From Lingula anatina (lineage: Eukaryota; Animalia; Brachiopoda): a DNA stretch of 64,000 nt. The first letter of the stretch is position 1. Each line of letters opens with the position of its first letter. The notes beneath the pieces are model-generated. The model had not been told where the DNA came from. It was given only the letters and a program-made list of their open reading frames with translations, and did not search any database. Shown piece after piece: positions 9,332-64,000 of this stretch. The translations under genes were made by a program, and so were the position numbers. Location: the NCBI GenBank assembly GCA_051362555.1, contig CM120643.1:9486001-9550000 (forward strand). The letters run 5' to 3'.

Positions 9332-9811
9332 CTTGTCTCCTCTCTTCGCTGATCAGCGTCTGTACGAGTTAGTTCGTCATCATTAGCACCGTCATGTTCG
9401 TTGCTCCACTTGTCTTTCCATCCTTCTGGCCTCAACGACCTTTACTATTGGAAACTGACCTACTTTATGACTGAACAAAATGATAAATCTACCGCTACCG
9501 GGGAACAGATATACTTTTAAAAGAATTAAGTTAAAATAAATAGTTCTGCTAGTGATAAAAAGAAAACACAAAATAGTAAATTGCAATTTATGTAAGAACT
9601 ATTGATAAATTTTATAAGTTTAGCATTTATTTTACTACAATTTCTTGCCGCCCCCTTAATCACAATCTTTATTTTAGCTCCAAGGTCATTGCGCATGGCA
9701 ACTCAGTGCGACTTTGTAAAGATGCTGGCAGCAGCTACACAAGCAGAAAAATACTTTTATCCTTTGCAAAAAAATTAAGCCCCGTCTTCGTGGGCTTTCA
9801 AACTCGATTCG
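9332..9811. promoter_or_regulatory. Putative bidirectional promoter and 5'UTRs shared by LPCAT and CK1alpha
   Basis: Only 480 bp separate the divergent ATGs at 9331 (minus) and 9812 (plus); transcription starts are not identifiable from sequence. Confidence 0.6.
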
Positions 9812-24862: not shown

Positions 24863-25849
24863 TGTGGAAGGTGAATGGCAGTCTACTGTGCCGGTAGTCT
24901 ACTGTCCACCACACTGGTTATGTTGAGCCCTTAACACTGTACCAGGTGTCCCACCTTCCAAAATACCTGGAATGCAACAAGCCAGGCAAGTTAGTGCAAC
25001 AAATAACCCAAATATTCATAAAAAGCAACTACAATGCAGACCTCTACATTGCACAACTCTGCAGTGTACAAAAGAACCAAAGTAAACTCTCCATGCATTG
25101 CACATTTGTGTAGATCTATTAACTCATAATTAATTTCTTTTTGTTTCAAGCTCAGAAATCATCTTTACTTTGTTATTATTATTATTATTATTATTTTAAA
25201 TAAATATATAAACTATAAACTTTGAAGAATGATAAATCTGAAACCATATGACTGTGTCAAAATGTGTGAAGTGCACACTTTTTAAATGCCCCTCCCCCTT
25301 TATATAACATCCAATGTCCACGATATGAACACCGTTTTCCTCCATCTAACGTACAGCAGATTAGACTCTAGAGGAGCTTTTCTTTCTGCATTTCGTGTTC
25401 AGCCAAATTGGTTATTGATAGTCAACATGTATGTTGTACTCACACTTACACCTAACAACAAAATATAAAGACAGCAACTTCGTCACATGTAGGATGATTA
25501 TGACAGTGTGTTTTCTTGTAAATACTTCTAAGCTCAGTTCACCCACGTTTGTCTGTTTACAGGACAAGCCATCTATCGTTAAAGCAGTCAAGATAATCAC
25601 AAGTTAAACCACAGCGGAGCTGGAATGTTTTGATGATAAAACTGTAAAACTGATCGTATTAGACTTTTCGAAAGATACTCATTTGGTTCGCTAAAATGAT
25701 CTGAGATGTATTTGATTTGTTACTTGTAAGCAAAAGGCATTTTCACACCAAAACCTAGAATGAAGGCTATCTTGATTCAACACCTTCTTTTGTAGATAGG
25801 ACAAACAAACTGCGAAAGAAAATGCATGGTTTCATCCTAACTTCACAAG

Positions 25850-44097: not shown

Positions 44098-44133
44098 TTT
44101 GTACCATACACATATACTTGAAACTTCTTTCAC

Positions 44134-44425
44134 ATTACTGCCACTTGAATTTTTGTTCTCCAGTATAGGTCAGAATTACATAATGTTTTTCGTCAGGTGG
44201 GTCTTTTACTGTGGTAAATAGTAATTTATCTTATTAAATCACTTTTCACAACGTCAGCATTTGATGGATTATTTCCAGTGTGAGTCATTTCACGCTGGGT
44301 GCAACTGTGTAAACGCTTTTCAAACACGGCAATATTTTGAAAGAATTTTTTTACAACATTGAAACACTGATGGTTTCTCTTCAGTCTGAGTGTCCTCTGA
44401 TGTATAATGTAGTTTGCACGTTTAA
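44134..44425 (-). pseudogene. Decayed zinc-finger repeats upstream of the intact array
   Basis: Minus strand shows linker/finger remnants (ACTCACACTGGA = THTG; AAATGCTGACGTTGTGAAAAGTGATTT = KC*RCEK*F) with stops and frameshifts. Confidence 0.6.
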
Positions 44426-46827
44426 ATGTGAGTACTAGTTGCGTAGATCTGGACTGTATACAGCGATTTCACTGGGTGTCAGTCCACAGTGGCTGTGATT
44501 TGGATCAGCTTCGTTGAGGCGAAGTGTCGCTAACGTGCACGTAAATTTCATGTTGCAGCCTCACCAATGACAAAGTTGTTGCTGATACACAGCAAAGTCG
44601 CATTATTCTACCCGATTCTTTCCGCTTATTTACGAAAACAATGTCATAAAACCTACATACGAGACAGTGTACGAGACAAAACATGCAGGTAAAAATGGGT
44701 AACGTACTATTATTCGATACTATTTATCTGAAATATCTTCAGGACAGGACACATTCCAATTCATTGAGATTGCTTTTAAGATAAAATAATGCGTTTCTAG
44801 ATTATTTTAGTTCATCTGAAACCTTAAATGTTGTCTTTTTTATATTTAATAATTATATAAACGTTTAATACAGATCTTGGTATAAAATTTCCTTCTTTTT
44901 TCAATAAACTCCAAAATAAACGCATGAGGTGTATATACAGTAGCCTAGGCCCCTATATATATTCAGGGGTGTAACCAGAACTTTTAAAATTGAACGCACA
45001 GATTTTCAAAATTCCCAAAGTACAACTAAATTTAGACTTACGCAACAGATGAAGGGCAGTTTAAATTATATGTGCCAAATATAATAGCTTAATTTTCTCC
45101 AGTAATTAAATCGTCACTTAAAGTTAAAAATATTCCTAAAATATAATTAAGTTCCACTAAACTAGTATTATTTCACCCAGGACCAACACTTTTTCCAGGA
45201 TTAGGGTACAGGCCGTCCAAAATTGCCATCTGTAATTTCCTTCAAAATTTAAGGGTGTCGAACTTTTCCAAGTGCCGAGAGAGGGAGGGGGGGGGGGGGG
45301 GCTGGGGGGTTTGGGGAATAAAATTAAATAAAAATATTTAAAAAATAATAAATTTCAATGGGGAGGGAGGGTTTAAAATAATCGGTAACGATGCAGTCGG
45401 CAACTATCTCTTGCTCCCGATCTTCGGTTAACGAAGTCTTTTGAACAGATAAGAAAATTCCCTTCTCGTCTTTTTGGCGAACGATCTCTCGCTGAAAATA
45501 TAAAATTTGCCTTTCTTGTCTATCAGCTTTGTCAGGTGCCGTATGTATAAAGATCCGGAAGGTGCCCCCTTGAATAATTTGGCGGCAAGTTAACTCAGAC
45601 TTCATTTAGGGCCTACACGTGTTTTGTACCGAATGTATATAATTCCTGTCACTACTGCATAATGTATTTTTTTAAAAGTTAATGGAAACATTCTATTGTG
45701 TTTTGTAAGCTTTAGGTCGTACAATGTATATAGTTACGTTGTGACTGAATAACAGCGTGCACTAAAAAGAAGAAATATTCAACTGAGACGCATCATAAAT
45801 GCGGGGTACGTCTAATTACTCCAAGCGATTTTGATACGCCGTCCACGGGTATATAATATTCGGAAATAGTGTTTGACTGCTGTAATGAAGTAATTCAGTA
45901 AAACATAAACATTTAACTTTAATCTATTAATATTAAATGAAGTTATGATATTTCGACTTGAAATCAGACAATTTCAGTCTTGGTGGTAGACAAGTTCTTA
46001 AAATATCAGGTTAATATGGAGAAAGATAGTAAACACTATCAGTGTTTTACTAATTGACAGTTTTGCTAAATTTTTATAGGAATTGCATAGTTCAGATTTT
46101 TATGCTCCACTAAATTGATGTAAACATACGTAAATTAGCTCAACATTCAATATTAAAATGAATGACAAAGCTTGATTTCTTAAATGGAAGACTGTACAAA
46201 TTCCTTTTGCATAAAAGATGACATCATTAAAATAATTATCCATTTTGCAGATTACTAGCTGAAGAGAACAAACTGATGGGTCAGTAACGTCCTTGAAAAA
46301 CTGTCACAGCACAATCGGCAGGAGTGAATCCAGGATTACTTGAAGGGGGGGTCGCCCCCCCCCCCCCCCCCCCCCCCCCACTCCGGGCATGAGGCCCCCC
46401 AAAATGTGGTATTTCAGAGGGTGAACAGTGCCATTTGGTACGGTTTAGAACTATGATTTACAGCTAGTCAAAATTCTAATTTCAATAGGGGACCATTTGT
46501 GTGATTTTTTAATCAGAAACAAAGTGGGGTTGGGACCCCCCTGACCCCCCTAAATTTGCACTGAACTGCGAATCACGTTTAAAAATGTTCGTTTAAAAAT
46601 GTTTGTTGTTTGTGTTATTGTCTCTGTATAGCAGCTCAGCTGGTATTTTCCTAAGGTGAAGCTTGAAGATGCTTTAACATCATTTTCTTTAAGTCCTTGT
46701 TCCTTAAATTTATGTTCATTAATGACATCTTGATTTCTTTCAAACTGTTTATATTCATATACCAGTCTGATTGTCATCAGAAACCTTTTTTTCAATAAAA
46801 TGCTCTAGATCCACCATCTTCTAGTGT

Positions 46828-48699
46828 CTAACTGTCTGGTTCATACTCTGTTGGTGATACTTCCATTAACAACTGAAGAGCTGTTGTGATTTTATCTGAA
46901 AGTAGGAAAAATTTTATTTGTTTTTATTTAATAATTAATCAATCTATTTTTTATAAATCTGATTTGGAGAATTATTCACTGATCTGTTATTTAAAATCAA
47001 TTCTTTTTATCAAAATATATGTACATAAAGTGATTATGAATTATAATGAAATTTACAGATAATCAAAATATCAAATATATGAGTGAAGAATGTACAAAAG
47101 TGTGGATTGTTTTTTAAAATTTATAAAATTAACAGATTCAGAACATAGCCCATTTTTGTGAGATGACATTGGAATCAAGAATCTGCCTAAATAGAACTGT
47201 AAAGAGACAATTAAACAACTTTTTAATGGTGAATACCCAAAAATGTACTTACCAATGAACTTTGGGTGTATTTTAAAGTGGATGAAAGGCACATAAAAGA
47301 TAAGTCCAGCCAAAATAAACAAGGTTGCGTACAGGTACTCCAGTTTAGGGGAGTCCACAATGGGAGCTATGACTAGGTACAGGGAAGCAAGCAGCATGAA
47401 AATTGGTATCACTATTGGAACCTGTGGAAAATACGGGAAATAGTCATCATTTTATGTTTTATGAAAAAATAAATAAATAAATAAATAATTAAAGAGTAGA
47501 TGGCTACAATCACAGTTACTGGAAACAGAAATGCAAGATATGAAGAAGTATAATAATAATGTTTAGGAACTTGCAGAAAAGAAAGTTAAATTATTTTATG
47601 AAAGACATTTTGCCAAAAAATATTTGCCGATATGAATGAATACCTTGTATGGCCTTGGCAGGTCAGGCTGTCTGAATCGTAGGACAAGAAGAGCAGCAAA
47701 TGTCGCACCATAAAACAACCAGGCAGTAAAACTAAAGAAATCGATGAGAGCAGATATATCTCCTGGAATGATCATCAGAATGGCAATGCAGGCCTGAAAA
47801 TGGAAATGATTCAACAGACTGAAATAGCATGCCAATGTCCTGCAAGGCAATCCCCCCAAAACGGCTCATTCCATACCTAAGTATCATTTTTTAATATCAA
47901 AATTTAATATGGCTTATTCCAAACCTAAGTATCATTTTTTTTAATGACAAAGTTTAATAAAGTGTTTTCAAAATTTAGGAATTTATTGTAAATACAGTGA
48001 AGAGAATGCATATATATAATAGATTCCAAACAAGGTGTATCAATACTAGCTAGACTTGCTTCTTTTCATACCATATCACAGTTCAATACAGCTTTCAGAA
48101 GTCTATTATTTTTCATTTATCTATTATTTTGTCCATTGTCAGATGCATCCTATGATAGACAGGCCAGTAACCAGCAATTCCAATGGGGGGGGGGGGGGGG
48201 GGGGGGGGTCTTTTTCTGAAAAGGTGGACCCTTAACCATAAAAACTTCATGTACCTACGTAGATCAAATTTTACCCAGAGTGGACATTTTCCCAGCAAAA
48301 GGGGAAGTTCTTTTCAACTCCCCCCCTCCCCCCTCCCCCCATCAGGCTACAGGCCTGATAGAATATTTATACTTACAGTAAAGATCATGGACGGGAGAGG
48401 TGTGTACTTTTTGACATGAACCATGGACAGAATACTCATAAGGTGGCCTTCTCTGGCTGCCACAAAACAAAGCCTGGGAACAGAAAAATGGAAATCTTAT
48501 GAGGTTCTGGCAGAATCTGATGAATTGTGAATCTGTCACTACCACAAACCAAAGCTGGAAAACCGAATAAATAAATGAATCTTTTTATTTTGTGACCTTT
48601 AATTTGGCTATACCACAAAATAGGGGCCTGTCAATTCAAAATGGCAACAGAAAAATTCTGGAATATAATTCACATCAAACAACAATAAATAAGTGTCAA

Positions 48700-48730
<31 letters not shown>

Positions 48731-51700
48731 AAAAACTGAATCAAAAGTTTAATTTCTATATTCAAGACATACTTTAATACAGGAAAACTGATAATTCATG
48801 CTGCCAATAATGATGTTATGTTTGATTTAGTGCCAATGAATGACGTGCATGTGGTGCTTTGACAAAATAAAAAAAGAAGAAGGGAAAAATGACCCACCTG
48901 CCACCTGTGAAGGCTGTGCCGTTAGCAGCACCAAATGTAGACATTGCCACAGAGATAGGAATAATAATGGCTGCTGGGCCTATCACTCTATCTGCCCATG
49001 TCTGAAATAATATATAATATAAAAGACTGTAAAATGAAGATTTAAAACCTTTATTACACATTTTACAGTATATATGTTTTCTATCATAGCTAAGAAGCTG
49101 CAGCACTACAGGTAGCACAAAACTATTGAACTCAAAAGGCATGAACATTTGAAAAAAGTGAATGAAAATCTTCCACATCCTGAAGCCTAATTAAGAACCA
49201 ATGTTGCACTTAGAGCGCATTCTCAACGAATTAAGCCAGGCTTTACAAAGCCGGTGACCTAAAAATGGCGGACGTACATGAAAGAAAAACCGCCTAATCT
49301 TTTAATAGTCTCTCCGCCTCTCACACGCCTCCCCACACGTCGTCCCTGCGGGGTACAGTAATTAAATCTCGGCTCCGAACATTAATATTTCCGTGAATAT
49401 CTCTGGTGATATTATCTCCGTAGATAGTCGATTCATTGCTGCTCTACAGGCCAAATTATTCCTTTTTCGTCTCTGTTTTCAAAGATAATAGAACAGAAGA
49501 GCTTTTTTCCTTCGATCGCCTTCAGCCGCCATGCTTTCTTCACCACGAGTTTAACTGATGAGCATGTGCACTTAATATTTCTCAGGTAGCTTCCGCATGG
49601 CGAACGGAGTCGAGATTTAATTACTGTACCCCACAGGGACGACGTGTGGGGAGGCGGAGAGACTATTAAAAGATAAGGCGGTCTTTCTTTCATGTACGTC
49701 CGCCATTTTTAGGTCACCGGCTTTGTAAAGCCTGGCTTAATTCGTTGAGAATGCGCTCTTAGTCTACTATTAATTGTGCTTCTGTAATTGATAGAAAAAA
49801 AAACTAGAAATAGTCAACAAACTTGGAAAATCTTTTTTTTTTTTTTTTGGCCAATATATCTGATTTTGTCAAACATACCAGATATATTCCAATTTTAATT
49901 AGTCCTACAGTATATTATATATTTTTACAACGGTTGTTGTTGTGTTGTTATTTTTACCTGGTGTATGTAATAAATGATGCAAAAAAAGAGAAGTCAAAAT
50001 TACTCACAAAATGTAGTTTTTCTCATGGCCATACCAGTACTTACAACAGCTACAGCAGGTGATGCAATAATTTCTGCAGCAGACATGACGCTCAAGTAGG
50101 AAATATTAACCAGGATATAGCATATCATAACCAGTGGCAAGCCAATCAGAATGGCACGAGGAAGATTTCTGAAATAAGAAAAAACATGAAAAGTGTCAAC
50201 AACAGGGGCAGATTGATCCAGACATATTTTCTGACAGTCTTCCAAATTATCTTTGTTGATCCATCCTCCTTTTCAACCGTCTTCCGACAGAAAAATTAAA
50301 TGACTTTCAATGTAAACTTGAAAAATTCTGACTGTCTTCCAGAAGACCCAGAAGATGGCCTCCAATGAACAATTACTGGTACTTTTCGCAGTTTGCTTAA
50401 AGGGTCCATCAGCTACTTCTACTGTTGAGTTCAAACAGATAAAGAAGCAAGTAACAATTTTTGTGGTGATTTACCAATGAAAATTTAAACTAAGTAAATT
50501 GATCAAACATTTATATGAAAATACACATTCAAGAACACAAAAGTTGTCAAACAATTACACTTACACTGTTGGGTTCTGCAACTCTTCTGTAGCATAATTC
50601 AAATTGTTCCTACAATAAACAAGCCAACCATTCATGATAGTCTTTAACTGAACACAAAATTTATTTTCAATGTTGCAAATTTAAAATTTTGACAAATGAT
50701 GAATTTGTATGAATTTCACAGAAGTGCATATCAAGCTGTCAACACTTGGTGTTTAAGCTTCTTCTGTATTTTTTTTAGATATTGATCCCTGTTCTACTTA
50801 TGCTGAAATCATGTAAATCGATCAGCCCATTTAAGGCAGTGTCAAGTTGACAGAGACTCCATCTTCTCTGCTCAGCATACTGAATATCATGTTTTCAGTG
50901 TGGCAGATCCGGCTGTGACATTTTTAAAGTACAAAAACTACCGTTAACAGTTGTGATTCAGAGGCTCAAGAAAGGAGCATCAAAAGATTCAGAACTTCAG
51001 TTTCAGAAAGGACTGCATGACCACTATATGCACATGTATATAACAGTGGATCATATAAATTAACACAATCATTTAGGCTTCGTTCACATGCAATCTGTGG
51101 ATCAAATATGGCAACCCACTAAACAGCTTGTCGCTTAATTCCTGTTTGGACATTAAGGCTTCGTTCACATGCAATGTCTATTTTCTAAATTCTATTTTCT
51201 ATTTGCACTATCTTATGATCACGGCCTGTGCACTGAATATCCCGCCGGGTAATTACTGGCAGCGCGAGCCAGTTACTTATAGTAACTTATAGTAACTGGC
51301 TCGCGCTGCCAGTAATTACGCTGCGGGATATTCAGGCCACAGACCGTGATCATAAGACATACCGCAAATAGAAAATAGAATTTAGAAAATAGACATTGCA
51401 TGTGAACGAAGCCTTAGCTACATGTTCCTTACCAGCCATCATAAGCCCACAGCCCATCATAGAATGCCAGTGCTATTCCAGCCACATTGTTAGAGGTGCC
51501 TTCAAACCCATTGCCAAGGTGTTGGATATTACCTGGATATAAAAGAAGTGAATAATTATATTAAGACAAATATTAATGGACTGGATATATGTATAACAAT
51601 TTTGCCTTCATGTTCATTTTCTTAACTGTAATATCAATATTCTTTAATTTTCAGTAAATCATTCATTCAGGCCTATTTTTTTATTTTGTTAATTAAAGTT

Positions 51701-54700
51701 TATTTTAAAATTTTGAAAATGATGATAAACCATTCCTTTAAGTTTTGGCTATGTAAACGTTACAAGTTTTTTTTCTATTTCTTTTAATATATCACTTTAA
51801 TAAGTGACCTAACAACCCACGTTGAAAATTGCACATTGTGACAAAGGAAAAAGACTACAGCTTCAAATAAAGTTTTCTTTTACACAATATTTCAGAGTCA
51901 TAATTGTTTATCTAAACTTTAAGTTGGCAGTCTGAAACATTGCTGTGACATTTGTAAATTAAATAATTGTTCATGACATAATACATAATTACTATCTGCT
52001 TACCTTGTATAAGTTTAACTATTCCGCCAACAATAATCAGTCCAATCGCAGCCAGTTTTGCAAAAGCAAAGAAGTTCTGAACCCTTGTCGCCAGCTTAAC
52101 TGAGTAACAGTTGATGCCCATTATAACCACTGCAGATATACACAATGGAGAGACATGAAATTTAATTATACTGAAATAATTTATTGACCATTGTTAAAAA
52201 TCCTGCTCACCCACATATTTTATAATGAATCACTTTGGCCAAATAACAAAGCATTAAATTAATTCACATTTAAATAAAGATTCAATAATTTTCACAATGT
52301 TCAGAGCTTTTTTAACAGATTCACTGCTGCTTTCTTAAACTGGTTTTGTATATATAAAATATCTCATAATCCCTATATTAACATAAATGATACTTTTTTC
52401 TTTAAAAAACTAATTTTGTCACAATAAGAAAATTTAATTTTAGGATAAAATATCAGAAAGTTTACATTTAATCTGGATATTTTTTGGGGAAATCCTTAAA
52501 ACATGTGTTCTTTACATGGAAGAAAGAGACAAACATTTGTTGAGAACCAGGTTATTTACCCAGTTATAAAATGCAGGAAAGATAAACAACAGACACAGAA
52601 AGACAATAATGCAAAAGCTTCTATAGATAAACCCAGTGAGTATGCTTCAGCATGCCTTTTGTGATCATCTGGTGTAATCTGATATCATTAACAACAGCAA
52701 ACATTAAACAATAAAGATCACCATTGTTTTCTGTAGTGATGACTGATTCGTGCAATCGCTTTCGTACCTTAACTGGAAATACTTAGGGACATATCTGACA
52801 TGTATGTTCCACAATGAATCTATTGTCTTAATATTATAGGTTTTTTCACAGTTTCTTCAATTAACCCAAATCATTTAAATTACACATGCAATATGAAATC
52901 TGTCCTTTAATGATCATCTCCTTTAAATAAAATCTACATACACTGACACACTCGTTACATGTATCATCTAGATTTACCATTATTTTCTCAGTTTTTTTAC
53001 TCTCTGCATGCTCTTGCTTGTATACCTGGTAGTTTCAAGCCCATTTACTATATTTAATTTTCTTTTTTATCTGTTTTTAATTATCCCTACAAGATTTGTT
53101 TTGTGCTTAGTTAATGCTGAAACAATTGAATTGCTTGTGTGAATTTTAACCCATAATATCTATCTTCCTGGTTTGTAGCTGTTTTTGATTACATATGTTC
53201 ATTTCAAAGTAGTTTAAAGTCCAGCTGTCATATTTATCTTCCTGGTTTCTAACCCTTAAATTATTCTGCACTTTTTTAATATGTTCTTGTTCCAAGCATG
53301 AAACATATTGTGTAAATTGCTTGAAGTTTCGAGTTCATTTAATCAGCACTTAGCAAGGACACAACTAACACTTACAGAAGGTGACAAATGCACGCTAAAT
53401 ACAGAAAACTTTTTTAAAAGTTTCATTATTATGAAATATTCTGTCATAAGATTATTTTCATTGTACATAGCAATTACCATTAACAACAAAGAATAGGAAA
53501 TCAAAGACAGTACTTGTGGACACTTGACTTTCAGGGTGAATCATAAAAAATAATGCACAGGAGAAAAAGAAATATTCAGCTTTAATGCTAAGAAAAAAAT
53601 TTCCCTGAGCATGGAACCGGTACCAGCTAAGTTATTATCATCCAGTTCTTTTTCCTTCCTAAAAAATTTTCCCCTTCCCCTCATCAAATCTGCCTTTGAT
53701 ATATTTATATAAATACTAAGACTGGGTTCCCATACCTAGATCGATCTAACAGGATTGATCCATCTCCAAGGGGTTTCTGGCTAAATAGCTTTCAGGCTTA
53801 AGCAACTTAGATGTCTGACACTTATTCTGAAGCTGCTAAATGATACTTAATTACCTCCTAGCAGCTTCAGGAGGCTTGACAGACATCTAAGCCGCTTAAG
53901 TTGATAGCAATTTAGCGAGAATCCCCTTGGAGAGGAATCAATCCACAGTTGGTACAATAGGGTCTGAGAACGGTCCCTTATACTTACTCAAAGCAGCAAA
54001 GGCTGTCAATTTCAGAATCGCCTGTGGGGGCCCACAGTTCCCATAGACAGGGGTCAGTGTGTACCTCGCAAATGCAAGGGTAATAATTGCCATTGACGAT
54101 GGTTTTTTTGCGAGTAATGTGGTCCACACAAAAAGAAATGCCGGAACTGGACCATAAGCCTCAAAATAATATGCATACATACTCCCAGACTTAGGAATGG
54201 CTGTTCCAAGCTCAGTGCAACACAGTGCTCCTGTCAAGGAAATTTGTACAAGTGCTGCTTTAATATATTTAATCTAGATCATCATGAATGTTTAAATATG
54301 TGAAAAATAATTACTTTAAAAAACCAACTCTTTTTGTCCTAAATGATTGTCATTCCGAGATCCATATATAATCAAGATGGGTATATTAATGCGCTTTTAA
54401 AATCTTGCACCAACCACACCACAATTTTTTTTTATCATGCTGTCATTTAAGAGAAATCCTTCTCAATATTAAAATGATAATTGATATTTCATACATTTTC
54501 AAGCATCATGCAATGTTTAAATTAAGGAAGTGTGCACCAATTTTTGCCTTAAATTCTGCATTCTCTAGCAATTAGGGAACTGCCCCATACTGATTTATAC
54601 AAAGTTTAAATGACAAATACTGGTATATGTTTTCTGATTATCATTGATTATATAAATTTAATTACCAGTCACTATGAAGATTTATGGTGGATCAAGGGGG

Positions 54701-57700
54701 GCAAAGAGAAAATTAAGTGCTCAAGTCTGATCCCTTTCCTGAAAAGTTGAATCTGTCATATGTAGGACCTGTCAGTATACTGAGTAAATACTGGAGAACT
54801 GTGCCATATGGAAGTCTTTATAGAAAATCCAAGCAGGCCCGTAGCCAGCAATTTAAAAAGGGGGGTTCTTTTTTCTGAAAAAGTGGACCTTTTCCCATAA
54901 AAACTTCATGTACATAGATCAAATTTTACCCAGAGTGGACCTTTTCCCAACAAAAGGGGCGGTTCTTTCGAACCCCCCGAACCCCCCCTGGCTACGGGCC
55001 TGCCAAGGGAGCATTTTACACCCAAGTTGATCCAAGGACTAACTGATAAAACCTGGCACGCACTTGAAAGCATGTTGGTAATCAATAAACAACAGATACA
55101 GAAAGGCAATAATGCAATAGCTTCTACAGATGCAGGGGTACGTGTATCCAGAGATATTTTCCGACAGTCTTCCAAATTATCTTTGTTGATCGATCTTCCA
55201 TTTTTGACCGTCTTCTGACAGAAAACATTAGATGGCTGACAATGTAAACTTGAAAATCTGACCATCTTCCAGAAGACCCAGAAGATGGCCTAAATCTGCC
55301 CCTGAAATGTTAACCCAGTGATGCTGGTGGCACTGCTTCAGCATATATTCCTGTAGTGATCATCTGGTGTAATCTGACATCATAAACAGGATGCATTAAA
55401 CAGTAAAGATCACCATTGTTTTCTTTAGTGATATAGGGTTCATGAATCTCTTTCAGTGCCCTAATTAAATCTAATTGAAAATACTTAAGAGCATACCTGG
55501 TGCATATGTTGAACAACGAATTTTAATTATCTTAATTACTATATTATCATTTTTTGTCACAGTTTCTTCGAGAACCCAAATCATTAATTACACGTGCAAT
55601 CTGAAATCTGTCCTTTAATGATTATCTTCTTTAAATAAGATCTACATACACGTACTAACACAAATGCACTTGGTACATGTACTGTACATATATCATCTGC
55701 ATTTACAACTATTTTCTCAGTTTCTAACTTTCTACAAGTGCTTGCTTGTATATTTTCAAGCCCACCAGATGACCAATATTTAAATTCCTTGTTTCTGACT
55801 GGCAGCTAGTGTTTTTGATTATCCCCACAAGATGTGTTTCAAGTTTATTGCTGAAACAATTAAATTGCTTGTGAGACTTCAAACCCATTCATTATATCTA
55901 TCTTCCTGGTTTGTAACTGTTTTTGATTAAATATATTTATAGCAAAACAACTGAATAGCTTGACGGCTTAGAAGTCTGGCATGCCTACAGAAGCTGCTAA
56001 ACAACACTTAATTACCTCCTAGCAGCTTCAGTAGGTGTGACAGACATCTAAACCAATTAAGTTGATTGCAATTTAGCGAGAATCCCCTTGGAAAGGAATC
56101 AATCCACAGTTGGTATGGTAGGGTCTGGGAATGGTCCCTTATACTTACACAAAGCAGCAGATGCCGTCAATTTCAGAATTGCCTGTGGGGGCCCACAGTT
56201 CCCATAGACAGGGGTCAGTGTGTACCTCGCAAATGCAAGGGTAATAATTGCCAATGATGATGGTTGTTGAACAAGCATTGTAGTCCAGACAAAAAGAAAT
56301 GCCGGAACTGGACCATAAGCCTCATAAAAATATGCATATGTACTCCCAGACTTTGGGATAGCAGTTCCAAGCTCAGTGCAACACAGTGCTCCTGTGGAGG
56401 AAAATTTGGACAAGTGCTGCTTTAATATTTTGAACCAAGCTAGATCATCATATACATGTGCACATGCATATATATACCAGTAATTTATGAGTGAAAATAA
56501 TTTAAAAAGTCAACTAATTTTGGCCTAATTGATTGTCATTATGGGGTCCAGAGGCTATAAGTTAGGTCAGACAAAATTGTGACTGCCACCCTAATTTTGT
56601 GGAAATCTGAATTCTTTTTGCACCTATTCTTTTTAATGGAAAAGATAAATTGGGTGTTGGTTTGGTTATAGTGGGAAAAGTACAACAGACAACACAAAAT
56701 ACCTGAATACTGTTGTTTTTATGCTCCAAAACCCATTTATAAAGCAAATTTGCTATTTTTTCCAACTTAACCTAGCATACTTACATATAGCTAATACTGC
56801 AGTTAGTTTCAGCACTGATTGAGGAGGCCCGCAGTTGTCATAGACAGGTGCCATAGCGTAGTGTGCAAAGGCAAGGCATATTATAGCCATAGAGGAAGGA
56901 CGAACAACAACAATTGATAGCCATGCATGGAGAAATGCGGGGACAGGACCGAACGCACTGCCTAGATAAATGTACTCGCCACCAGACTTTGGTATTTCGG
57001 TCCCCAGCTCAGCGTAACACAAAGATCCTAGAGAAAAGCAGTACTAAGTAAAAGAAATGCCAAAATGCAGCTAGAAAATCAGACTAACCAAGCTTAAAAA
57101 TGCAGATAATAAAGCATGAAATCTTTAAAATCCTGCAAACCTAAAGATGTCAAAGTTAATAAAGAGATGTTTTGGTCAATTCATTAGAAAAAAGAAGTTC
57201 CAATTCTCAGAAATTTTGTGTATGATTGAAGGGGGGGGGGGAGGAGCTGCCAATCATGCCAGGGCCTGTATTCATGCAGGAGTGAGACTAAAGAATTTAA
57301 TTTAACAGCATTTTTGGCTGGTAAGAGCCAATCAACATTTGATGAAGATTTTATGCCATTTTTCCAGTTTGAAGTCAACCAAGGGGTGGGGCAGGGAGGT
57401 CCACTTTTTCAGAAAAAAAGCTATAACCCTTTTTTGAAATTTTCACATTGCTAAGCTAAATTTAAGGCACCCTGCTAAAGTGCAGTAAATGGAAAAATAT
57501 GTTGGAGTTTATTCAGATGGAGGAAAATTTTAAAAGGGATGCAAGGTTGTGACTGAATCAGAGACAGTCTTACAAGCTAGACCAAGAGTTCTATTGTGAC
57601 TGAATGAGAAAGAATCTTACAAGCAAAAGAAGAGCCAACATGCACTGTGATTTGCAGTAGCTATCTAATATTAGACTAAACTGTTAAACGTTTCACACTT

Positions 57701-58258
57701 TTCACCAATATCTATATCTGCAGGTAAATATGGAGCATTTGAAACAAAGGTTATATATACCTCAGTTAGGACCTTATAGCTACATGTATAAGCATGTCAT
57801 ACATGTATAACTGAATAGCAATGACTTATTTTACATTATCTATTCCAGTGATTGAAAATGCCCATGCAACTTTGATTCTAGCTACGAATAGGACCCACCA
57901 AATATATACTCTGCATTGTATACATGTATCCGTATATTGTTTGGTGGATCCTAGGATTGTATGATTTTATTCTAAAGCATATGCACGCACACAATGTTAA
58001 GGTCACTGTACTTACAAATAGCAGCTGCAGCAATCATTTTGGGAATAGAAGGAGGCGGGCCACAGCCATCGTATATGACGACAGATAAGTATTGTCCAAA
58101 TGCTAACATAATGATAGAGAGTGAGGAGGTTTTTATCACTGCCACTGACAGCCATGCAAAGAGGTATGCTGGGATAGGTCCGAAAGCTTCGTAAAGGTAT
58201 GCATATTCTCCGCCTGATTTTGTTAGTGCCGTCCCTAGCTCAGCATAGCACAAGGAAC
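46828..58258 (-). CDS. SLC7A9: SLC7 (LAT family) amino-acid transporter light chain, b(0,+)AT/SLC7A9-like; first exons lie beyond the right edge
   Basis: One of four 243-nt exons, then constant exons 52129-52004 (126 nt), 51532-51433 (100), 50609-50565 (45), 50168-50045 (124), 49001-48898 (104), 48473-48377 (97), 47793-47644 (150), 47421-47253 (169) and 46895-46828 (stop). Motifs [76 protein letters not shown]. Exon sizes agree with my recollection of human SLC7A9 except the 169-nt exon; this should be verified. Confidence 0.92.
48160..48357. mobile_element. MITE with CAGGCC termini and 5-bp TSD ATAGA (hAT5-like)
   Basis: ATAGA|CAGGCCAGTAACC...GGCTACAGGCCTG|ATAGA; same family as 54834-55002. 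Confidence 0.75.
49213..49758. mobile_element. 546-bp MITE with long near-perfect TIRs and TTA TSD (young PIF/Harbinger-type)
   Basis: TTA|GAGCGCATTCTCAACGAATTAAGCCAGGCTTTACAAAGCCGGTGACCTAAAAATGGCGGACGTACATGAAAGAAA... with an exact inverted copy at the right end |TTA; a related fragment lies near 41240-41375. Confidence 0.88.
51157..51413. mobile_element. Near-perfect 257-bp palindromic MITE; extra orphan TIR at ~51076
   Basis: GGCTTCGTTCACATGCAATGTCTATTTTCTAAATTCTATTTTCTATTTGC...inverted copy...GAACGAAGCC, flanked by TAA/TTA. Confidence 0.85.
53720..53977. mobile_element. Palindromic MITE immediately downstream of the exon D donor
   Basis: Family of 5027-5238; both arms present; ends ~10 nt from the GT at 53987. 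Confidence 0.8.
53988..54230 (-). CDS. SLC7A9: SLC7 alternative exon D (243 nt, phase 1-1)
   Basis: ccttgacag|GA GCA...[81 protein letters not shown]|gtaagt. Confidence 0.87.
54834..55002. mobile_element. MITE, TIR CAGGCCCGTAGCCAG, 5-bp TSD CCAAG
   Basis: CCAAG|CAGGCCCGTAGCCAG...CTGGCTACGGGCCTG|CCAAG. Confidence 0.85.
55133..55304. mobile_element. MITE of the 19887-20054 family (inverted), imperfect 5-bp TSD AGATG/AAATG
   Basis: CAGGGG...CCCCTG termini; internal sequence is the reverse complement of 19887-20054. Confidence 0.75.
55957..56138. mobile_element. Truncated MITE downstream of the exon C donor (outer left arm missing)
   Basis: Colinear with 53795-53977; lacks a counterpart of 53720-53790. 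Confidence 0.75.
56149..56391 (-). CDS. SLC7A9: SLC7 alternative exon C (243 nt, phase 1-1)
   Basis: cctccacag|GA GCA...[81 protein letters not shown]|gtaagt. Confidence 0.87.
56785..57027 (-). CDS. SLC7A9: SLC7 alternative exon B (243 nt, phase 1-1)
   Basis: ttctctag|GA TCT...[81 protein letters not shown]|gtaagt. Confidence 0.9.
58016..58258 (-). CDS. SLC7A9: SLC7 alternative exon A (243 nt, phase 1-1)
   Basis: gattttag|GT TCC TTG TGC TAT...[81 protein letters not shown]|gtaagt. Confidence 0.9.
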
Positions 58259-59202
58259 CTAAAATCAATGGCAATTTGTTGGCTTTGGTTAGTTTATCAT
58301 CTGGAAGCATTTTTAGTGACCTTTACAACTGAAAGTATCAAGACATTATCTTGTATTAAATAAAAGTTTTTTTTACGATACATTTAATTTCATATTTGCC
58401 AGTATATGGAATTATTTCAAATAAAAAGGAAGAAAATTTCACAAAAAATAAACACTGTCTTGTAACTTTCTGTATTGTCAATGAGTGTTAGATCTTTATA
58501 TAAATAAAGTTTTTTCCTCAAAGTATCAACTATTTTCCCTTACAATCACCAAGGTATGCAATATCAAATACCATTCGTAAAACTGTAATTGATAAAATTT
58601 GTTTTTCAGGCTCTAGTTTTCAGTTTTTGAGTAATGCTGAAAGACACTGGTGTATTTCACAATGGATTGACAGATCAATTTTTTTCAACAGTTATGGATA
58701 GGGCACCACCATACCTTGATGATAAAGAGAAGATTAAAGTTAAATAATAATATTATTTATTTTTTTCATTGCTATATAAAGATCTAGTGTACATCATATG
58801 TCTTCCATCTTAAAATAAAAATAAATAAGTATGACTACTGTAGCACATGATTTTAATTTATATGAGTAAAAGGCTCCACTAGTACTATTAGCATATAAAG
58901 CAGTTAGACATAATATATATATTTTTTAATTTATAGACTGAAATGCTTTCTATAAAGCAAAATTACAATAACCCAAAGCAAAAAATGGCGAATTTTAATT
59001 CTCTATTCAAATAATTTGTCCCAATTTACTGGGTATCAAACAATAAAATTGCTATATAAATATGTATCTCAAAAAAAAAAAAAAAAAGTTCAAGAAATGT
59101 TCATGTTATTTTACGTAAAATACTATTCAAATGTTCAAGTAGTACCAGTACATTTTTATAAAAAATAATATATATATATATATAAAAATATAAAAATAAT
59201 AG

Positions 59203-59430
59203 TGTAGTGCCGAGGGGTCATTGCATGACCCGGAAGCATGTCACGGCGCATGCGTAGTAGTGAGTTGAAGTTGAGAGCGTTGGAGTTGAGCATGGCGCGC
59301 TCAAGCGCATGGTGCTAAGTTGTGGTGAAGAGAGAATTAACAAGAAAACGAGGACTTGGATGCCTATTCAGAAAAGGTAGGCACTTTACTTATTCATAGG
59401 CCAGTTGTAACCCACAACCCGGTTTCTATA
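59203..59430 (+). repeat. Putative 5' LTR (~228 bp)
   Basis: Begins TGTAG after an AT-rich host flank and ends CTATA (imperfect inverted terminus) 1 nt before the PBS; the 3' LTR is not in the window. Confidence 0.7.
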
Positions 59431-59431
59431 T

Positions 59432-59452
59432 TGGTGGCAGCCGGGCCGGATT
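59432..59452 (+). promoter_or_regulatory. Primer-binding site, probably tRNA-Leu
   Basis: TGGTGGCAGC is complementary to the 3' end of eukaryotic tRNA-Leu(AAG/UAG) (...GCUGCCACCA); the match degrades after 10 nt. Confidence 0.7.
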
Positions 59453-59696
59453 TGTGCCACATTTGGGCAGAAAAGTTGCGAATTTTTCTGCTGAGGAGTT
59501 TTTCAGCCACGGAGCTGAACTCCGCACTCAGGCACGCTACCCTACCATTTTAATGTTTATTGTTGTATAAATTGTATATGAGGAAACCCCAGCACGGACT
59601 GGTGAGTGTTTTTAGAGTGTTTTTACAGTAGTTTCTTACAAGTTTTAAGGAGTTTTCTGGAATTTTCGGCGGCACGTGCGCCAAGGAAAAAACAAA

Positions 59697-61802
59697 ATGG
59701 CGACGCACGCCAGGATTTTCATAAATTATGCAAATGTAAATGAGTTAATGCGGACTCCAGGTCTCACGGAAGACCAAGTGTTCAAAATAGCCGAATTGAG
59801 GGAACAGTTTGGAAATTTAAATGTGCAGCAAGTGGAAAGTGCTTTGTGCTGCAGACTGGCTCCTCGTACGCTGGATATGGTGGACTTTGAGCCGAATCAG
59901 CGCTTGGGTGTGGGCAGCACGGCTGTTTCACTCAGGGAAAGGAAGGTGCAGGAGACAGGAGGATCTGGAAACTGGCTATGGAGATTTTTCCGGTTTCTTT
60001 TAGGACTGTTCTTCGGATTTTCTGCTCAGGAGGAGAGCAACGCTTTCAATAGCGAAAGTGCGCCTCACGGAGGTGGCACGCGGCAGCTAGGAGGCTGTGA
60101 GGGTCAAATGAGTGCACGTCGTAACTCGGAGGCCACGGTGCCGAAGAGATTATTCGAGGATAGTGGACTGGAGGGAGCGAATTCGCCTCAACTTGTCAAA
60201 CGGAGCCCAGGTAAAAATGTAGTTAAGAATGTAAATAGTGGGGTTCAGCAGGGGGGTCCTTATGTTCCATATACACCTAGCCCCATGGGGGGTGGGGTAG
60301 CATTAGGTCCCGGGAGTCAGGATAGGGCTGTTTACACCCCTGAATTGTTTACACCTAGTCCAGGGGGGGGCGTTGTAAGGGAGACTCCTATGTCCGGGGA
60401 TGTCCGGGGGGAGGGGTATGCTATTGGCCCGGGGGGTGGTGGCAGCTATTCGGGTTACCCTGGGAATCATAGCCCTCCAATGGCACCTGGTGTCAGTTCC
60501 CCAGTCATGCACCCTGGGAATCACGGATTCTCAGTACCGCACCCTGGAAATCACAGTTCTCCAACCATGTACCCTGGGAATCACGGATTCTCAGTACAAC
60601 ACCCTGGAAATCACAGCTCTCCAGCCGTGCACCCTGGGAATCACGGATTCTCAGTACTGCACCCTGGAAATCACAGCTCTCCAGCCATGTACCCTGGGAA
60701 TCACGGATTCTCAGTACAACACCCTGGAAGTCACAGCTCTCCAGACGTACACCCTGGGGATCACGGATCTCCAGTGGTGGGAAGTGGATCGAATTCAGGG
60801 CACTTAGTGTATCATAGCACCCCAGTGGAGGGAGGTAGCCAGGACGAACACCCTGTATTCCAGGGCTCTCCTATATTGAAACGGGGCGCGGCCTCGAGGA
60901 GGACTGCACGGCTCACGGAGCTAGGGGCAGAACAAGACTCAATAGAGAGGAGGAAGGTCAATCCTCCTAAGAGCTTAACTTTTAACGGACACGGAAGTTG
61001 GGCTGCTTTTAAGTTGCTTTTCTTACGACAGGCAGAGAGGGAGGATTGGGATCGCGACATGTCCCTGGATGCACTATGCCTCTGCCTGAAGGGTAAAGTC
61101 CTAGACTGTTGTGTGAACGTCACACGCAGGCTAGGTAAGCTCTCATATGAAGGTCTCATGGAGGAATTGGAGACCTGTTACGGAGAAACGGACACACCGG
61201 CTACGGTCCGGTCGCAGCTACATAACGCTACTCAAGGCGAGACAGAAACGGTGGATGAATGGGGAGTCAGGGTGCTACGTCTGACTTCTGAAGCGTATGC
61301 TCAGCTACCTAGGACATTCGTGGAGTCAGAGGCTGTAAGTCGGTTCTGCGCGGGCATGATTGATTCAGAGGCAGGTCAATCAATTTATATGCGACAGCCA
61401 GCCACCTTAAGGGAAGCGATGCAGCTGGCTAAGATGCATAGGGAAATGCGTGTGACTATGGAGAATGCGGGAAAGAAATTGCGCCCGGGAGCCAAGCGAG
61501 CCAACCAAGTGACGCCTGCAGCAGAGGGTAACATTCCAGAGCTGGAACAGATGAGGGACACCATCAAGGAAATGGAGAAGGCGTTGAAAGATGTCCGCCA
61601 GGAGCTGAGTAGGAGGTCATCTACCGGTTACGGCCACGGAGCCGCACCCGGAAACCAGCGGGGCTGGGGACGGGGCAGCACTGGAAGCTCGGTGCTGTGT
61701 TATAAATGCAATCGGCAAGGGCACATTGCAAGGGAGTGCCCGCAGGTGGGAAACTCCACCGGGTCGAGGCCGGAGGCCAACCCTCGACCCAGCGATTCAT
61801 AG
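59697..61802 (+). CDS. gag: Gag (701 aa from ATG 59697): HhH-like N-terminus, hydrophobic helix, decapeptide repeats, capsid-like domain, coiled coil, CCHC knuckle
   Basis: aaaATGG context. Capsid-like LTFNGHGSWAAFK...W...L...LKG...QGETETVDEWGVRV...RFCAGM...PATLREAM, and CYKCNRQGHIAREC. Confidence 0.9.
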   Translation: MATHARIFINYANVNELMRTPGLTEDQVFKIAELREQFGNLNVQQVESALCCRLAPRTLDMVDFEPNQRLGVGSTAVSLRERKVQETGGSGNWLWRFFRFLLGLFFGFSAQEESNAFNSESAPHGGGTRQLGGCEGQMSARRNSEATVPKRLFEDSGLEGANSPQLVKRSPGKNVVKNVNSGVQQGGPYVPYTPSPMGGGVALGPGSQDRAVYTPELFTPSPGGGVVRETPMSGDVRGEGYAIGPGGGGSYSGYPGNHSPPMAPGVSSPVMHPGNHGFSVPHPGNHSSPTMYPGNHGFSVQHPGNHSSPAVHPGNHGFSVLHPGNHSSPAMYPGNHGFSVQHPGSHSSPDVHPGDHGSPVVGSGSNSGHLVYHSTPVEGGSQDEHPVFQGSPILKRGAASRRTARLTELGAEQDSIERRKVNPPKSLTFNGHGSWAAFKLLFLRQAEREDWDRDMSLDALCLCLKGKVLDCCVNVTRRLGKLSYEGLMEELETCYGETDTPATVRSQLHNATQGETETVDEWGVRVLRLTSEAYAQLPRTFVESEAVSRFCAGMIDSEAGQSIYMRQPATLREAMQLAKMHREMRVTMENAGKKLRPGAKRANQVTPAAEGNIPELEQMRDTIKEMEKALKDVRQELSRRSSTGYGHGAAPGNQRGWGRGSTGSSVLCYKCNRQGHIARECPQVGNSTGSRPEANPRPSDS
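60510..60779 (+). repeat. Coding minisatellite: nine 30-bp units in an alternating 60-bp dimer, (H/Y)PGNH(GFSV/SSP.).
   Basis: accctgg(g/a)aatcac(gg/ag) recurs every 30 bp. Confidence 0.95.
61748..61790 (+). other. Programmed -1 ribosomal frameshift signal: G GGA AAC, 6-nt spacer, 9-bp GC-rich hairpin
   Basis: Heptamer 61748-61754 is in the gag frame; GGGTCGAGG (61761-61769) pairs with CCTCGACCC (61782-61790); the -1 frame is the pol frame. Confidence 0.88.
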
Positions 61803-64000
61803 GCCCAGATGTTATAAATAAGCCCATTAAGAAACTCAGGGTACCAGAGGAGTCAGCAGTTTCGGATATTAAGTGCACTGTACCCACGGAGGTACAGGGT
61901 GTGCAATCAGAATTTACTCGACAGGGTGCAGCACTAGTCCAAGACAAGCCCAACCGTGATACGAGTCACGTTGAATCACCAACTAGGGCAGATGAGGCTA
62001 CCACAGGGGGAATACAGGGCACGGTTCCTGCTCCCATGGTAGTGGTGCGACAAATCGGAACAGTGGCGGATTATTCACTTCAGATGAAAGTGGGAAACAT
62101 TGCTGTGAATGCTGTAGTGGACACTGCGGCTCAAGTTACGATACTTTCAGACCGCATTTACAACAGTCTTAAGAAACAACCTAAGAGGTTGAATTCAGTA
62201 CAGCTTTTAGCCGCTGGTCGGGAAATGGTGATGCAGGGGTTCACGGCAGGCCCTGTTAAGTTAAAGATTGGACATAAGTGGTATGCTGTGAGGCTATACG
62301 TAGCCCCCATTGAACAGGATATGTTGCTGGGAATGGACATTATGAAGGACTTAGGACAGGCAGTAGTGGATGTCGGCAGAGGAGTGATGCAGTTTGACGG
62401 CATGTATCTGACATTAGACGCTAATTCAGATAAGGGAACACCTCAGATGGCCAGGGTCACTGTCGCACGGCGCCAGGTGATACCCCCTTACTCCGCTGCC
62501 AGGGTGGCCTGTAAGTTAGATGTAGATCTTCCTAGTTATGTAATAGAGCCAAAGGTGGGGGGTGTTGGTAAGTTCCTTGCTCCCAGGGTTATTCGTAATG
62601 GGGGGTCTGAACCCATCATGGTCCTCATAAATCCCAGTGAGAGGCACAGACTACTGCGTAAGGGTACTGAAGTGGGGCGGGCTTTTACCTATGCGGGTAT
62701 TATAACGTCTGGGGAGCCCCTGGGGGATCCGTTATGTTTCCCTAGTAACCAAGGGGAGGGTGGCAGGTCACCTGGGGCGGAGGTCATTCACTGCATACCA
62801 CCAGCAGTGCAGTCAGTCACGGCACGGACCGATGACGAGGTCAATGACGAGGCGCGACGCGTGCCTTCTCATTTAAAGCAGGTGTATGAGGGATCCAGTG
62901 CAGAATTAGATGATCAGCAGAAAGTTCACCTAGCGAGATTACTCACGGAGTATCAGGATGTGTTTGCTAGAGACGAATTTGATTTAGGAAACTTCACATT
63001 GGTTGAGCATAAGATAGACACTGGTACTGCTCTTCCGATAAAGCAGAGAATGCGGCGAACGCCACGGTGCTTTGTGGGCGAGGAGGAAGCCCATTTACAG
63101 AAGATGTTGAAGGCAGGAGTGATTCAGGAGTCAACTTCCGACTGGGCGTCGGCGCCAGTGTTAATACGGAAGAAAGATGGCTCTGTGAGGTGGTGTATCG
63201 ATTACCGTGCGTTGAATGCCGTGACCACTAAGGACGTGTTCCCATTACCCTTAGTCGATGACTGTTTGGATACCTTGTCGGGTAATGTGTATTTTTCTAA
63301 GTTGGACGCCAACTCTGCGTATTGGCAGGTGCCCATACGTGAAGAGGATCGGAAAAAGACAGCTTTCATTACGAAATATGGTCTCTATGAGCATGTGCGT
63401 ATGGCATTTGGTCTGTGCGGGGCGCCCGCGACCTATGCTCGGATAATGAACTTAGTTTTCCGTGGAATGTCCTGGAAAACTGTGCTGGCATTTCTAGATG
63501 ACATAGTGGTACTCGGTACTACTTTTGATGTGCATTTACAGAACCTAAGGGACGCCCTTGAGAGGTTCCGCAGCTACGAGCTGAAGCTTAAGCCAAAGAA
63601 ATGCACCTTCTTTAAGAAGGAGATTGAATTTCTCGGACGGATAGTGACAGGGGAGACGCTCTCCATGTCTGATCATGACATTAAGGCTGTCACGGAATGG
63701 CCTACACCAACATGTGCCAAAGATGTGGAGAAATTCATGGGCTTGGCTAATTACCATCGAGCCTTTATTAAAAACTTCAGTGAGATAGCGGCACCCCTGT
63801 ACGCTGTAACTGGAAAGAGTTACGAGTGGGGTGAGGAACAAGCACGGGCTTTTACGGCATTAAAGGGGGCATTAACATCTCCCCCAGTTCTTTCTGTTCC
63901 CACGGTGGACGGAGAGTTCATTTTAGATACAGACGCAAGTGACTTTGCTATAGGAGCAGAGCTTATTCAAGTACAAGATGGCCAGGAGAAAGTGATAGCT
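61748..64000 (+). CDS. pol: Pol polyprotein (partial): aspartic protease, reverse transcriptase, start of RNase H
   Basis: One frame (-1 relative to gag) carries AVVDTAAQVT (GAC 62120), SDWASAPVLIRKKDGSVRWCIDYRALN, MAFGLCGAPATY, AFLDDIVV (63491) and FILDTDAS (63926); no stop seen before the window edge. Confidence 0.93.

What the first reader, a model, noticed from the sequence alone, without database searches (positions are those of the whole stretch)
53988..58258. Four-way cassette of duplicated substrate-site exons in an SLC7A9/b(0,+)AT-like transporter
Seen: four homologous exons, each exactly 243 nt, phase 1-1, with intact AG/GTAAGT sites and no stops. No other SLC7 exons lie between them, and all feed one set of nine downstream exons. 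Differences cluster in TM3: VAVIKTSSL (A), IVVVRPSSM (B), MLVQQPSSL (C), LLAKKPSSM (D). C and D also change YAE to CTE and GGEY to GSxY. Known: TM3 lines the substrate pocket in LAT-family transporters (e.g. the TM3 Arg of xCT), and the loop Cys that bonds to the SLC3 heavy chain is kept in all four (xCGPP). Inference: one gene makes four carriers of different selectivity by mutually exclusive splicing, where vertebrates use separate paralogs. I am not aware of this being described for SLC7.
Basis: partly seen in the sequence, partly recalled or inferred. Interest (0 to 1): 0.9.

Follow-up and report, generated by a model that had tools for sequence, protein, structure and literature searches.

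The report
Swappable pocket exons in brachiopod transporter
A brachiopod amino-acid transporter gene carries four tandem copies of the exon that builds one wall of the substrate pocket, and it likely splices in one copy at a time, which would let one gene make carriers with different transport properties.

Summary
Confirmed: four 243-nt, phase 1-1, open exons (A-D) with AG/GTAAGT sites precede nine shared exons. The gene matches the Lingula anatina SLC7A9 (b0,+AT) orthologue. RefSeq already models isoforms with A, with B and with none; no C or D model was found. RNA reads join D to the next exon (5 and 4 reads in 2 of 4 runs). No C-type read and no copy-to-copy joint was listed, at low depth. 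'Four carriers of different selectivity' is not shown: 5 of 7 documented pocket positions are identical in all copies, and read variants in the copies are mostly non-synonymous (11:2, against 2:13 in shared exons). Mutually exclusive splicing in SLC7 is known (SLC7A2). Not found in print: this TM3 cassette, or that the same exon is alternative in protein models of 5 of 34 other species and the TM8 exon in 10 of 34. Verdict: a real cassette, a new member of a known kind; function untested.

The parts
58016..58258 (-). Cassette exon A (end of TM2, loop, TM3, disulfide loop, start of TM4)
   Evidence: 243 nt, AG/GT, open; same amino acids as RefSeq XP_013391135 and one residue from isoform X1; RNA depth on the exon and on its flanking introns
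56785..57027 (-). Cassette exon B
   Evidence: 100% identical to RefSeq isoform X2; low RNA depth, partly running into the upstream intron
56149..56391 (-). Cassette exon C (recent twin of D; no sign of use)
   Evidence: reads laid here at 85% likeness are D-type; zero depth in bin 56321-56747 at 95% likeness
53988..54230 (-). Cassette exon D
   Evidence: joint to 52129 in 5 reads (X7) and 4 reads (X9), none listed in X1 or X4; loose ends equal to the start of the next exon
52004..52129 (-). First shared downstream exon (126 nt)
   Evidence: joints
46828..51532 (-). Eight further shared exons: 51532-51433, 50609-50565, 50168-50045, 49001-48898 (TM8 exon, single here), 48473-48377, 47793-47644, 47421-47253, 46895-46828 (stop)
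   Evidence: seven of the eight shared-intron joints are among the rows shown
55967..56451 (.). Duplicated block holding C, 88% alike to 53806-54285 holding D; a neighbouring block 55334-55946 is 72% alike to 52643-53208
   Evidence: self-blastn; intron parts 11% and 17% mismatched
53752..53944 (-). Palindromic dispersed repeat just after D's donor; its far arm (about 53752-53820) is a predicted docking site for D's arm and for C's arm
   Evidence: predicted duplex -92.7 (D arm) and -73.2 kcal/mol (C arm) vs about -31 +/- 5 for 200 single-letter shuffles; A -20.7, B -29.0; further copies elsewhere in the window
56037..56105 (-). Single arm of the same repeat after C's donor (candidate selector)
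59200..64000 (+). LTR retrotransposon in the intron upstream of A (left edge approximate; runs off the window); hides the TM1-2 exons
   Evidence: GC shift, sequence, protease, RT and RNase H Pfam hits in ORF 61706-64000

Best explanation
The Lingula SLC7A9-type gene holds four tandem copies of its TM3 exon, and likely splices one copy (A, B or D; C is probably near-silent) between shared upstream and downstream exons, which would give carriers that differ in one pocket wall and so likely in kinetics or selectivity. Shown: the copies, their splice sites, and D joined to the next exon. Taken from annotation: full-length A and B isoforms. Inferred: that D joins the same upstream exon, that co-inclusion is rare, and that the proteins transport differently. 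No steric, frame or minor-spliceosome rule enforces the choice. For C versus D, a repeat-derived hairpin is predicted to act as docking site and two selectors, with D's local pairing the stronger. For A and B the control is unknown, most likely splicing-factor competition.
For: Equal length, phase and splice sites, and dN/dS 0.14-0.26; C/D 10 non-synonymous vs 13 synonymous, Fisher p 0.002. RefSeq X1 and X2 differ only at residues 122-190. D-to-52129 joint in 5 and 4 reads, similar to shared joints in those runs (1-12 reads). No A-B, A-C or B-C joint listed. Depth arithmetic fits single reads ending exactly at A's and B's donors in X9. The exon maps without gaps on b0,+AT 80-159, LAT1 100-179 and xCT 94-173. 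The two positions that differ are LAT1 Ile140 (I/V/Q/K in A-D), part of the TM3 pocket patch (PMC11828871, passages), and xCT Arg135 (K/R/Q/K), where even Arg-to-Lys kills transport (PMC8654953, passages). The same exon is alternative in protein models of 5 of 34 other species compared.
Against: No transport data. Five of 7 documented pocket or near-pocket positions (b0,+AT T123 and S131; LAT1 S144, I147, V148) are the same in all four copies. C and D change Y83 and E96, each invariant in 105 of 105 orthologue representatives, and score below all 105 on the family profile. Read variants in the copies are 11 non-synonymous to 2 synonymous, against 2 to 13 in shared exons (p 0.0004) and not different from a neutral share (p 0.53). 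No 5' joint of any copy was listed; in X7, 7 of 8 reads just upstream of D's acceptor carry intron sequence. No joint or loose end at A's or B's donor was among the rows shown (8 joints hidden, 1 loose end hidden). RefSeq also models a skip-all isoform, and crustacean models include both copies. Depth was 15 reads or fewer per site.
Confidence: 0.55

Rival explanations
1. The splicing is real but the copies are largely redundant: A and B are near-equivalent carriers, and C/D are drifting under relaxed selection without a distinct substrate role.
For: 11:2 non-synonymous to synonymous read variants in the copies vs 2:13 in shared exons; C/D lose two residues invariant in 105 of 105 representatives; C not seen in reads; A/B pocket differences are conservative (I/V, K/R).
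Against: All four frames are open with 243 nt kept, which a simulated neutral copy does in 7% of draws at 37% divergence, indels not modelled; C/D dN/dS 0.26; D is the only copy with a listed joint; E96 varies among human LATs (y+LAT2 has Ser there). The variant rows are the best-supported subsets at two different likeness thresholds, and diversifying selection would give the same excess.
Confidence: 0.25
2. D (perhaps other copies too) works as an internal first exon: transcription starts in the intron before it, and D's new Met codon starts a protein without TM1-2 that cannot transport and may hinder the heavy chain.
For: 7 of 8 reads upstream of D's acceptor in X7 are intronic, and A and B also have upstream-intron depth. 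D has Met at exon codon 17 where A and B have Glu. Scallop, abalone and damselfly models start at or inside this exon. Short Drosophila Sbm isoforms fail to bind CD98hc and disturb its location (PMC6167638, section 8; where those isoforms start was not seen).
Against: In X9 no read passes D's acceptor while 6 cover the exon 28 nt inside it, and the depth fits reads ending at the acceptor. Intron reads also lie beyond the donors of A and D, as unspliced pre-mRNA would give. Met17 is not fixed in the reads (12 of 21 carry D's letter at the second codon position).
Confidence: 0.13
3. C and D are two haplotypes or a mis-joined repeat placed in tandem by the assembly, so the real cassette has three copies.
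For: No C-type read in three runs; the collection holds two near-identical models of this gene on two scaffolds, which suggests haplotype duplication in that assembly; no DNA run was available.
Against: C and D differ at 24 of 243 exon bases, 14 on third positions, and at 11-17% of flanking intron bases; a neighbouring block is only 72% alike. The two scaffold models differ at 2 of 519 residues. The RNA animals differ from the window, so C may simply be silent or absent in them.
Confidence: 0.07

Closest known systems
SLC7A2 CAT-2A/CAT-2B
   Same: SLC7 family; tandem-duplicated, mutually exclusive exons; one gives about 3-fold higher capacity and lower affinity (PMC12714141, passages; listed as a tandem duplication in PMC8373072, passages).
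   Different: CAT subfamily without heavy chain; two exons (7 and 8), not four; a later part of the protein (loop position recalled, not checked); function measured, unlike here.
SLC12A1 (NKCC2) exons 4a/b/c
   Same: Cluster of more than two homologous mutually exclusive exons in a transporter (PMC8373072, passages).
   Different: Cation-chloride cotransporter; three copies conserved in vertebrates; the effect on ion affinity is recalled, not read here.
Drosophila mrp and Dscam1 multi-exon clusters; docking/selector RNA structures
   Same: Invertebrate clusters of several homologous internal exons, enriched in transporters and channels (PMC8373072); selectors can arise when one arm of a stem-loop is duplicated with the exon (PMC7797038, passages), as predicted here for C/D.
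   Different: Here the stem-loop is a dispersed repeat, covers only C and D, and is untested.
Human b0,+AT (SLC7A9) and Drosophila Sobremesa
   Same: Best solved-structure match (581 bits vs 488 for xCT consensus and 441 for LAT1); disulfide Cys kept; one orthologue group with arthropod and deuterostome proteins in a tree without the two cassette exons.
   Different: No TM3 swap among the insect models compared; the four fly transcripts described differ in length. Human isoforms were not compared here.

Membership tests
SLC7 LAT light chain, SLC7A9 type | Amino-acid permease domain, closest to b0,+AT | tested here: met
   PF13520 on the full model and on exon A above cut-off; D just under (25.3 vs 27 bits); PDB ranking
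SLC7 LAT light chain, SLC7A9 type | Cys between TM3 and TM4 for the SLC3 disulfide | tested here: met
   Cys at the b0,+AT C144 position in all four copies; role from PMC7159911 passages
SLC7 LAT light chain, SLC7A9 type | TM1 unwound substrate motif | tested here: inconclusive
   Present in the RefSeq models but its exons lie outside the window
SLC7 LAT light chain, SLC7A9 type | Binds an SLC3 chain and exchanges amino acids | not testable with these tools
   Needs expression and uptake assays; no complex job was sent
Tandem-duplicated mutually exclusive exon cluster | Adjacent homologous exons of matching length and phase with canonical sites | tested here: met
Tandem-duplicated mutually exclusive exon cluster | Each copy joins the same downstream exon | tested here: inconclusive
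   D: reads. A, B: RefSeq models and single-read depth arithmetic only. C: not seen
Tandem-duplicated mutually exclusive exon cluster | Each copy joins the same upstream exon | tested here: inconclusive
   A, B: RefSeq models. C, D: no model and no listed 5' joint
Tandem-duplicated mutually exclusive exon cluster | Copies are not co-included | tested here: inconclusive
   No joint listed within 56128-58420 (threshold 3 reads); skip-all model exists
Tandem-duplicated mutually exclusive exon cluster | Enforcement by steric clash, frame shift or U2/U12 mismatch (common, not required) | tested here: not met
   Introns 988, 393, 1918 and 1858 nt; 243 is a multiple of three; all donors GTAAGT; mechanisms as listed in PMC5740500 passages
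Docking/selector RNA structure | One docking site complementary to a selector beside each copy | tested here: inconclusive
   Predicted for C and D, absent for A and B; the element is a dispersed repeat; no covariation data

The most novel reading that the evidence does not exclude
SLC7A9/Sobremesa genes across bilaterians retune their substrate pocket by splicing: the exons for two pocket helices, TM3 and TM8, were duplicated (repeatedly, or once early and then lost in places) into alternative cassettes, and Lingula's four-copy TM3 cluster, with a charged or polar residue at the LAT1 Ile140 position in D and C, yields carriers of new selectivity from one gene.
Probability: 0.3. Interest if true: 0.75.

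Novelty: new member of a known kind. Interest (0 to 1): 0.52.

Why it matters
If the isoforms transport differently, they are natural single-helix swaps on an identical scaffold: a direct test of what TM3 contributes to selectivity in b0,+AT, the cystinuria transporter, where the role of TM3 residue T123 is still open (PMC8399266, section 6 part 1). The recurrence of alternative TM3 and TM8 exons in arthropod, echinoderm and hemichordate models suggests that invertebrates diversify LAT pockets by splicing, and gives a testable case of repeated exon duplication at functional sites.

Tried and rejected
No whole genome was held, so the region beyond the retrotransposon, the TM1-2 exons and any further copies could not be read. 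No RNA holder was listed in the index; nine raw-read runs were offered by species label, of which six were laid (X1, X4, X5, X7, X8, X9), each at 6-30% of its size; X5 gave 0 reads, which is no test. A protein search with exon D among 44-140-residue proteins found nothing. A metagenome scan with one crustacean-like protein found nothing. A second gave 37 loci, 0 of which hold a tandem TM3-only cassette: three have one exon split by an intron, two hold tandem whole genes, one has two part-matches. So the cassettes of other species rest on protein models only. A single-sequence AlphaFold model had mean pLDDT 40 and was not used. The exon tree (87 columns, 48 rows) resolves only C+D for Lingula; AU tests do not reject one clade for A-D (p 0.54), for both Cherax copies (p 0.36) or for all long-form exons (p 0.52), so ancient versus repeated origin is undecided. 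Steric, frame and U12 enforcement rejected. No pairing of A's or B's donor region with the hairpin. One Fisher test printed at the end used placeholder counts and is discarded; one search holds the right ones. The translation printed had one acceptor misplaced, corrected. No earlier scan findings. Supplements were not read; tables of mutually exclusive exons in the Drosophila and human surveys, or the MetazExp database (search listing only), may list such events.
Full report
1. Observation. Nucleotide identity is 56-63% except C/D at 90%; amino-acid identity is 41-49 of 80 except C/D at 71 of 80. Nei-Gojobori dN/dS is 0.14-0.26 in five pairs, with dS near saturation outside C/D and infinite for A/D. 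Nine shared exons follow. No other SLC7 exon lies between the copies, and the TM1-2 exons are not in the window; an LTR retrotransposon fills the intron from about 59200 to the window's end. C and D lie in a duplicated block of about 485 nt (88% alike), with a neighbouring block at 72%.

2. Identity. Exon B is 100% identical to RefSeq 'b(0,+)-type amino acid transporter 1 isoform X2' of Lingula anatina, and the downstream exons match that protein. Its cluster has 3 of 3 members named: X2 (exon B), X1 (exon A) and a model on a second scaffold with exon A as in the window. A fourth model, X3 (438 residues), skips the exon altogether. No model with C or D turned up. These are computational models; I did not see their read support. 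The best solved relative is b0,+AT. A tree of 29 proteins without the TM3 and TM8 exons groups arthropods and deuterostomes each as one branch, with Lingula among lophotrochozoans, as expected of one orthologue group.

3. RNA. Six of nine offered runs were laid, each read at 6-30%. At 95% likeness over 46500-59300, seven shared-intron joints appear with 1-12 reads in X7 and X9, and the joint from D to 52129 with 5 reads in X7 and 4 in X9, none listed in X1 or X4; 15 of 23 joints were shown. At 85% likeness over 56128-58420, reads laid on C are D-type: of 24 sites that tell C from D, 17 are among the 40 of 63 rows shown; at 15 of them every read has D's letter, and at two (56266, 56340) part of the reads do, in line with a second D-like haplotype. 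Their loose ends equal the start of exon 52129 (4 reads in X7, 4 in X9). No joint between copies was listed. A and B have 2-7-fold depth in X7, partly continuing into introns; no loose end at their donors was shown (1 row hidden), though bin depths in X9 fit one read ending exactly at each donor. No 5' joint was listed for any copy; in X7, 7 of 8 reads 5 nt upstream of D's acceptor are intronic, in X9 none pass it. So D is used and, in X7 and X9, is the only copy with a listed joint; C is not seen; exclusivity and D's upstream partner remain open.

4. What differs. The exon maps without gaps on b0,+AT 80-159, LAT1 100-179 and xCT 94-173. Documented TM3 positions are LAT1 Ile140, Ser144, Ile147 and Val148 (PMC11828871, passages), xCT Arg135 (PMC8654953, passages), and b0,+AT Thr123 and Ser131 (PMC7159911, passages; PMC8399266, passages and section 6 part 1; bioRxiv 10.1101/577551, passages). 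Two of these 7 differ among A-D: Ile140 (I, V, Q, K) and Arg135 (K, R, Q, K); five are identical. A also has Thr for the following Pro (103 of 105 representatives have Pro). Against 105 orthologue representatives (118 less 13 multi-copy or fused models; insect-heavy), C and D change Y83 and E96, each invariant, and score 124 and 122, below the lowest member (148); A and B score 166 and 161. E96 is not invariant among human LATs. Variation is not confined to TM3 (19 of 28 vs 27 of 52 columns, p 0.24), except between C and D.

5. A result against strong constraint. Among read variants shown that fall in coding exons, 13 of 15 in shared exons are synonymous, whereas 11 of 13 in the copies are non-synonymous (A 4 of 4, B 0 of 1, D-type 7 of 8 after removing C/D diagnostic sites); Fisher p 0.0004, and 11 of 13 does not differ from a neutral share of 0.73. 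The rows are best-supported subsets (261 hidden, 23), taken at different thresholds, and D-type reads may come from two loci. Relaxed and diversifying selection both fit.

6. How the choice may be made. Introns of 393-1918 nt, a length divisible by three and uniform GT-AG sites exclude steric, frame-based and U12 enforcement (mechanisms in PMC5740500, passages). A palindromic repeat follows D's donor, and only one arm of it follows C's. The far arm is predicted to pair with D's arm (-92.7 kcal/mol) or C's (-73.2), against about -31 for shuffles; A and B show nothing. This is the geometry expected when one arm of a stem-loop is duplicated with an exon (PMC7797038, passages). The element has other copies in the window, so strong pairing is expected of it regardless; its role is untested.

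7. Other animals. I compared same-species protein models for 34 species, chosen by me from the best 120 of 3258 hits with a bias to clusters with several members, and not all listed members; two pairs that proved to be different genes, one cross-species spider set and Lingula were left out. In 5 of 34 the TM3 exon segment is alternative: swapped in Centruroides and Cherax, single versus doubled in Panulirus, Procambarus and Oratosquilla; a Daphnia model also holds two copies. In 10 of 34 the segment matching the 104-nt TM8 exon is swapped (four malacostracans, a scorpion, three sea stars, a crinoid, a hemichordate); that exon is single in the window. No TM3 or TM8 swap appeared in the mollusc, insect, horseshoe-crab or barnacle sets. 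Yet the limpets Lottia and Patella, 79-97% alike in seven segments, are 62% and 59% alike in the TM3 segment and the next, and an AU test rejects their TM3 exons as sisters (p 0.005, group named after seeing the tree), which hints at an unannotated mollusc cassette or at paralogy. I saw no DNA for any of these. The exon tree cannot tell one origin from several.

8. Comparison with what is known. Mutually exclusive exons that change transport are known in SLC7 (SLC7A2; PMC12714141, passages), and multi-copy clusters in SLC12A1 and Drosophila mrp (PMC8373072, passages). It works like these. As a member of the mutually exclusive class it meets the anatomical tests and leaves the read-level tests open. 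Searches of the held library gave no paper on this cassette: searches returned none; some searches returned listings on other subjects, of which I opened PMC12714141 and PMC6167638 (passages and section 8). Most subscription papers and all supplements were outside what I saw.

9. Verdict. The anatomy is real and at least three copies have some support for use. The claim of four carriers with four selectivities is a hypothesis: best reading 0.55, redundant or drifting copies 0.25, internal start at D 0.13, assembly duplicate for C/D 0.07. Novelty: new member of a known kind. Interest 0.52, raised by the recurrence of alternative TM3 and TM8 exons in this one gene and by how directly the isoforms can be assayed.

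Noticed in passing
window 2669-2884 and 908-1130, minus strand: Two homologous coding segments (45% amino-acid identity), one with a Pfam Acyltransferase hit and both with an HxxxxD-type motif (motif role recalled); may be a second duplicated-exon pair in an LPCAT-like gene. Whether other exons lie between was not tested.
   Followed up: partly
protein models P0066/P0144, P0113/P0185, P0085/P0196, P0054/P0235, P0105/P0265, P0089/P0276: A second alternative exon (TM8 region) in arthropod, echinoderm and hemichordate orthologues; single in this window.
   Followed up: partly
protein models P0027 and P0031: Lottia and Patella models share the backbone but carry short and long forms of the TM3 segment, and differ in the next segment too; possible unannotated mollusc cassette.
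   Followed up: partly
window 53988 and 56160-56363: RNA reads show two D-like haplotypes with several non-synonymous differences, and a last exon base matching A-C rather than the window's D.
   Followed up: partly
window about 59200-64000, plus strand: LTR retrotransposon with a long open pol frame and a short tandem array near 60500-60770, inside the transporter's intron, opposite to the gene.
   Followed up: partly
window 9779-10810, plus strand: Intronless kinase ORF, casein-kinase-1-like by eye (Pkinase hit); possibly a retrocopy.
   Followed up: no
window 23624-24898 and 42637-44169, minus strand: A long deaminase-domain ORF (ADAT3-like by recall) and a C2H2 zinc-finger array ORF.
   Followed up: no
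L018-L020; L011, L021: Metagenome loci where the TM3 exon is split by an extra intron, and loci with tandem whole-gene copies.
   Followed up: no
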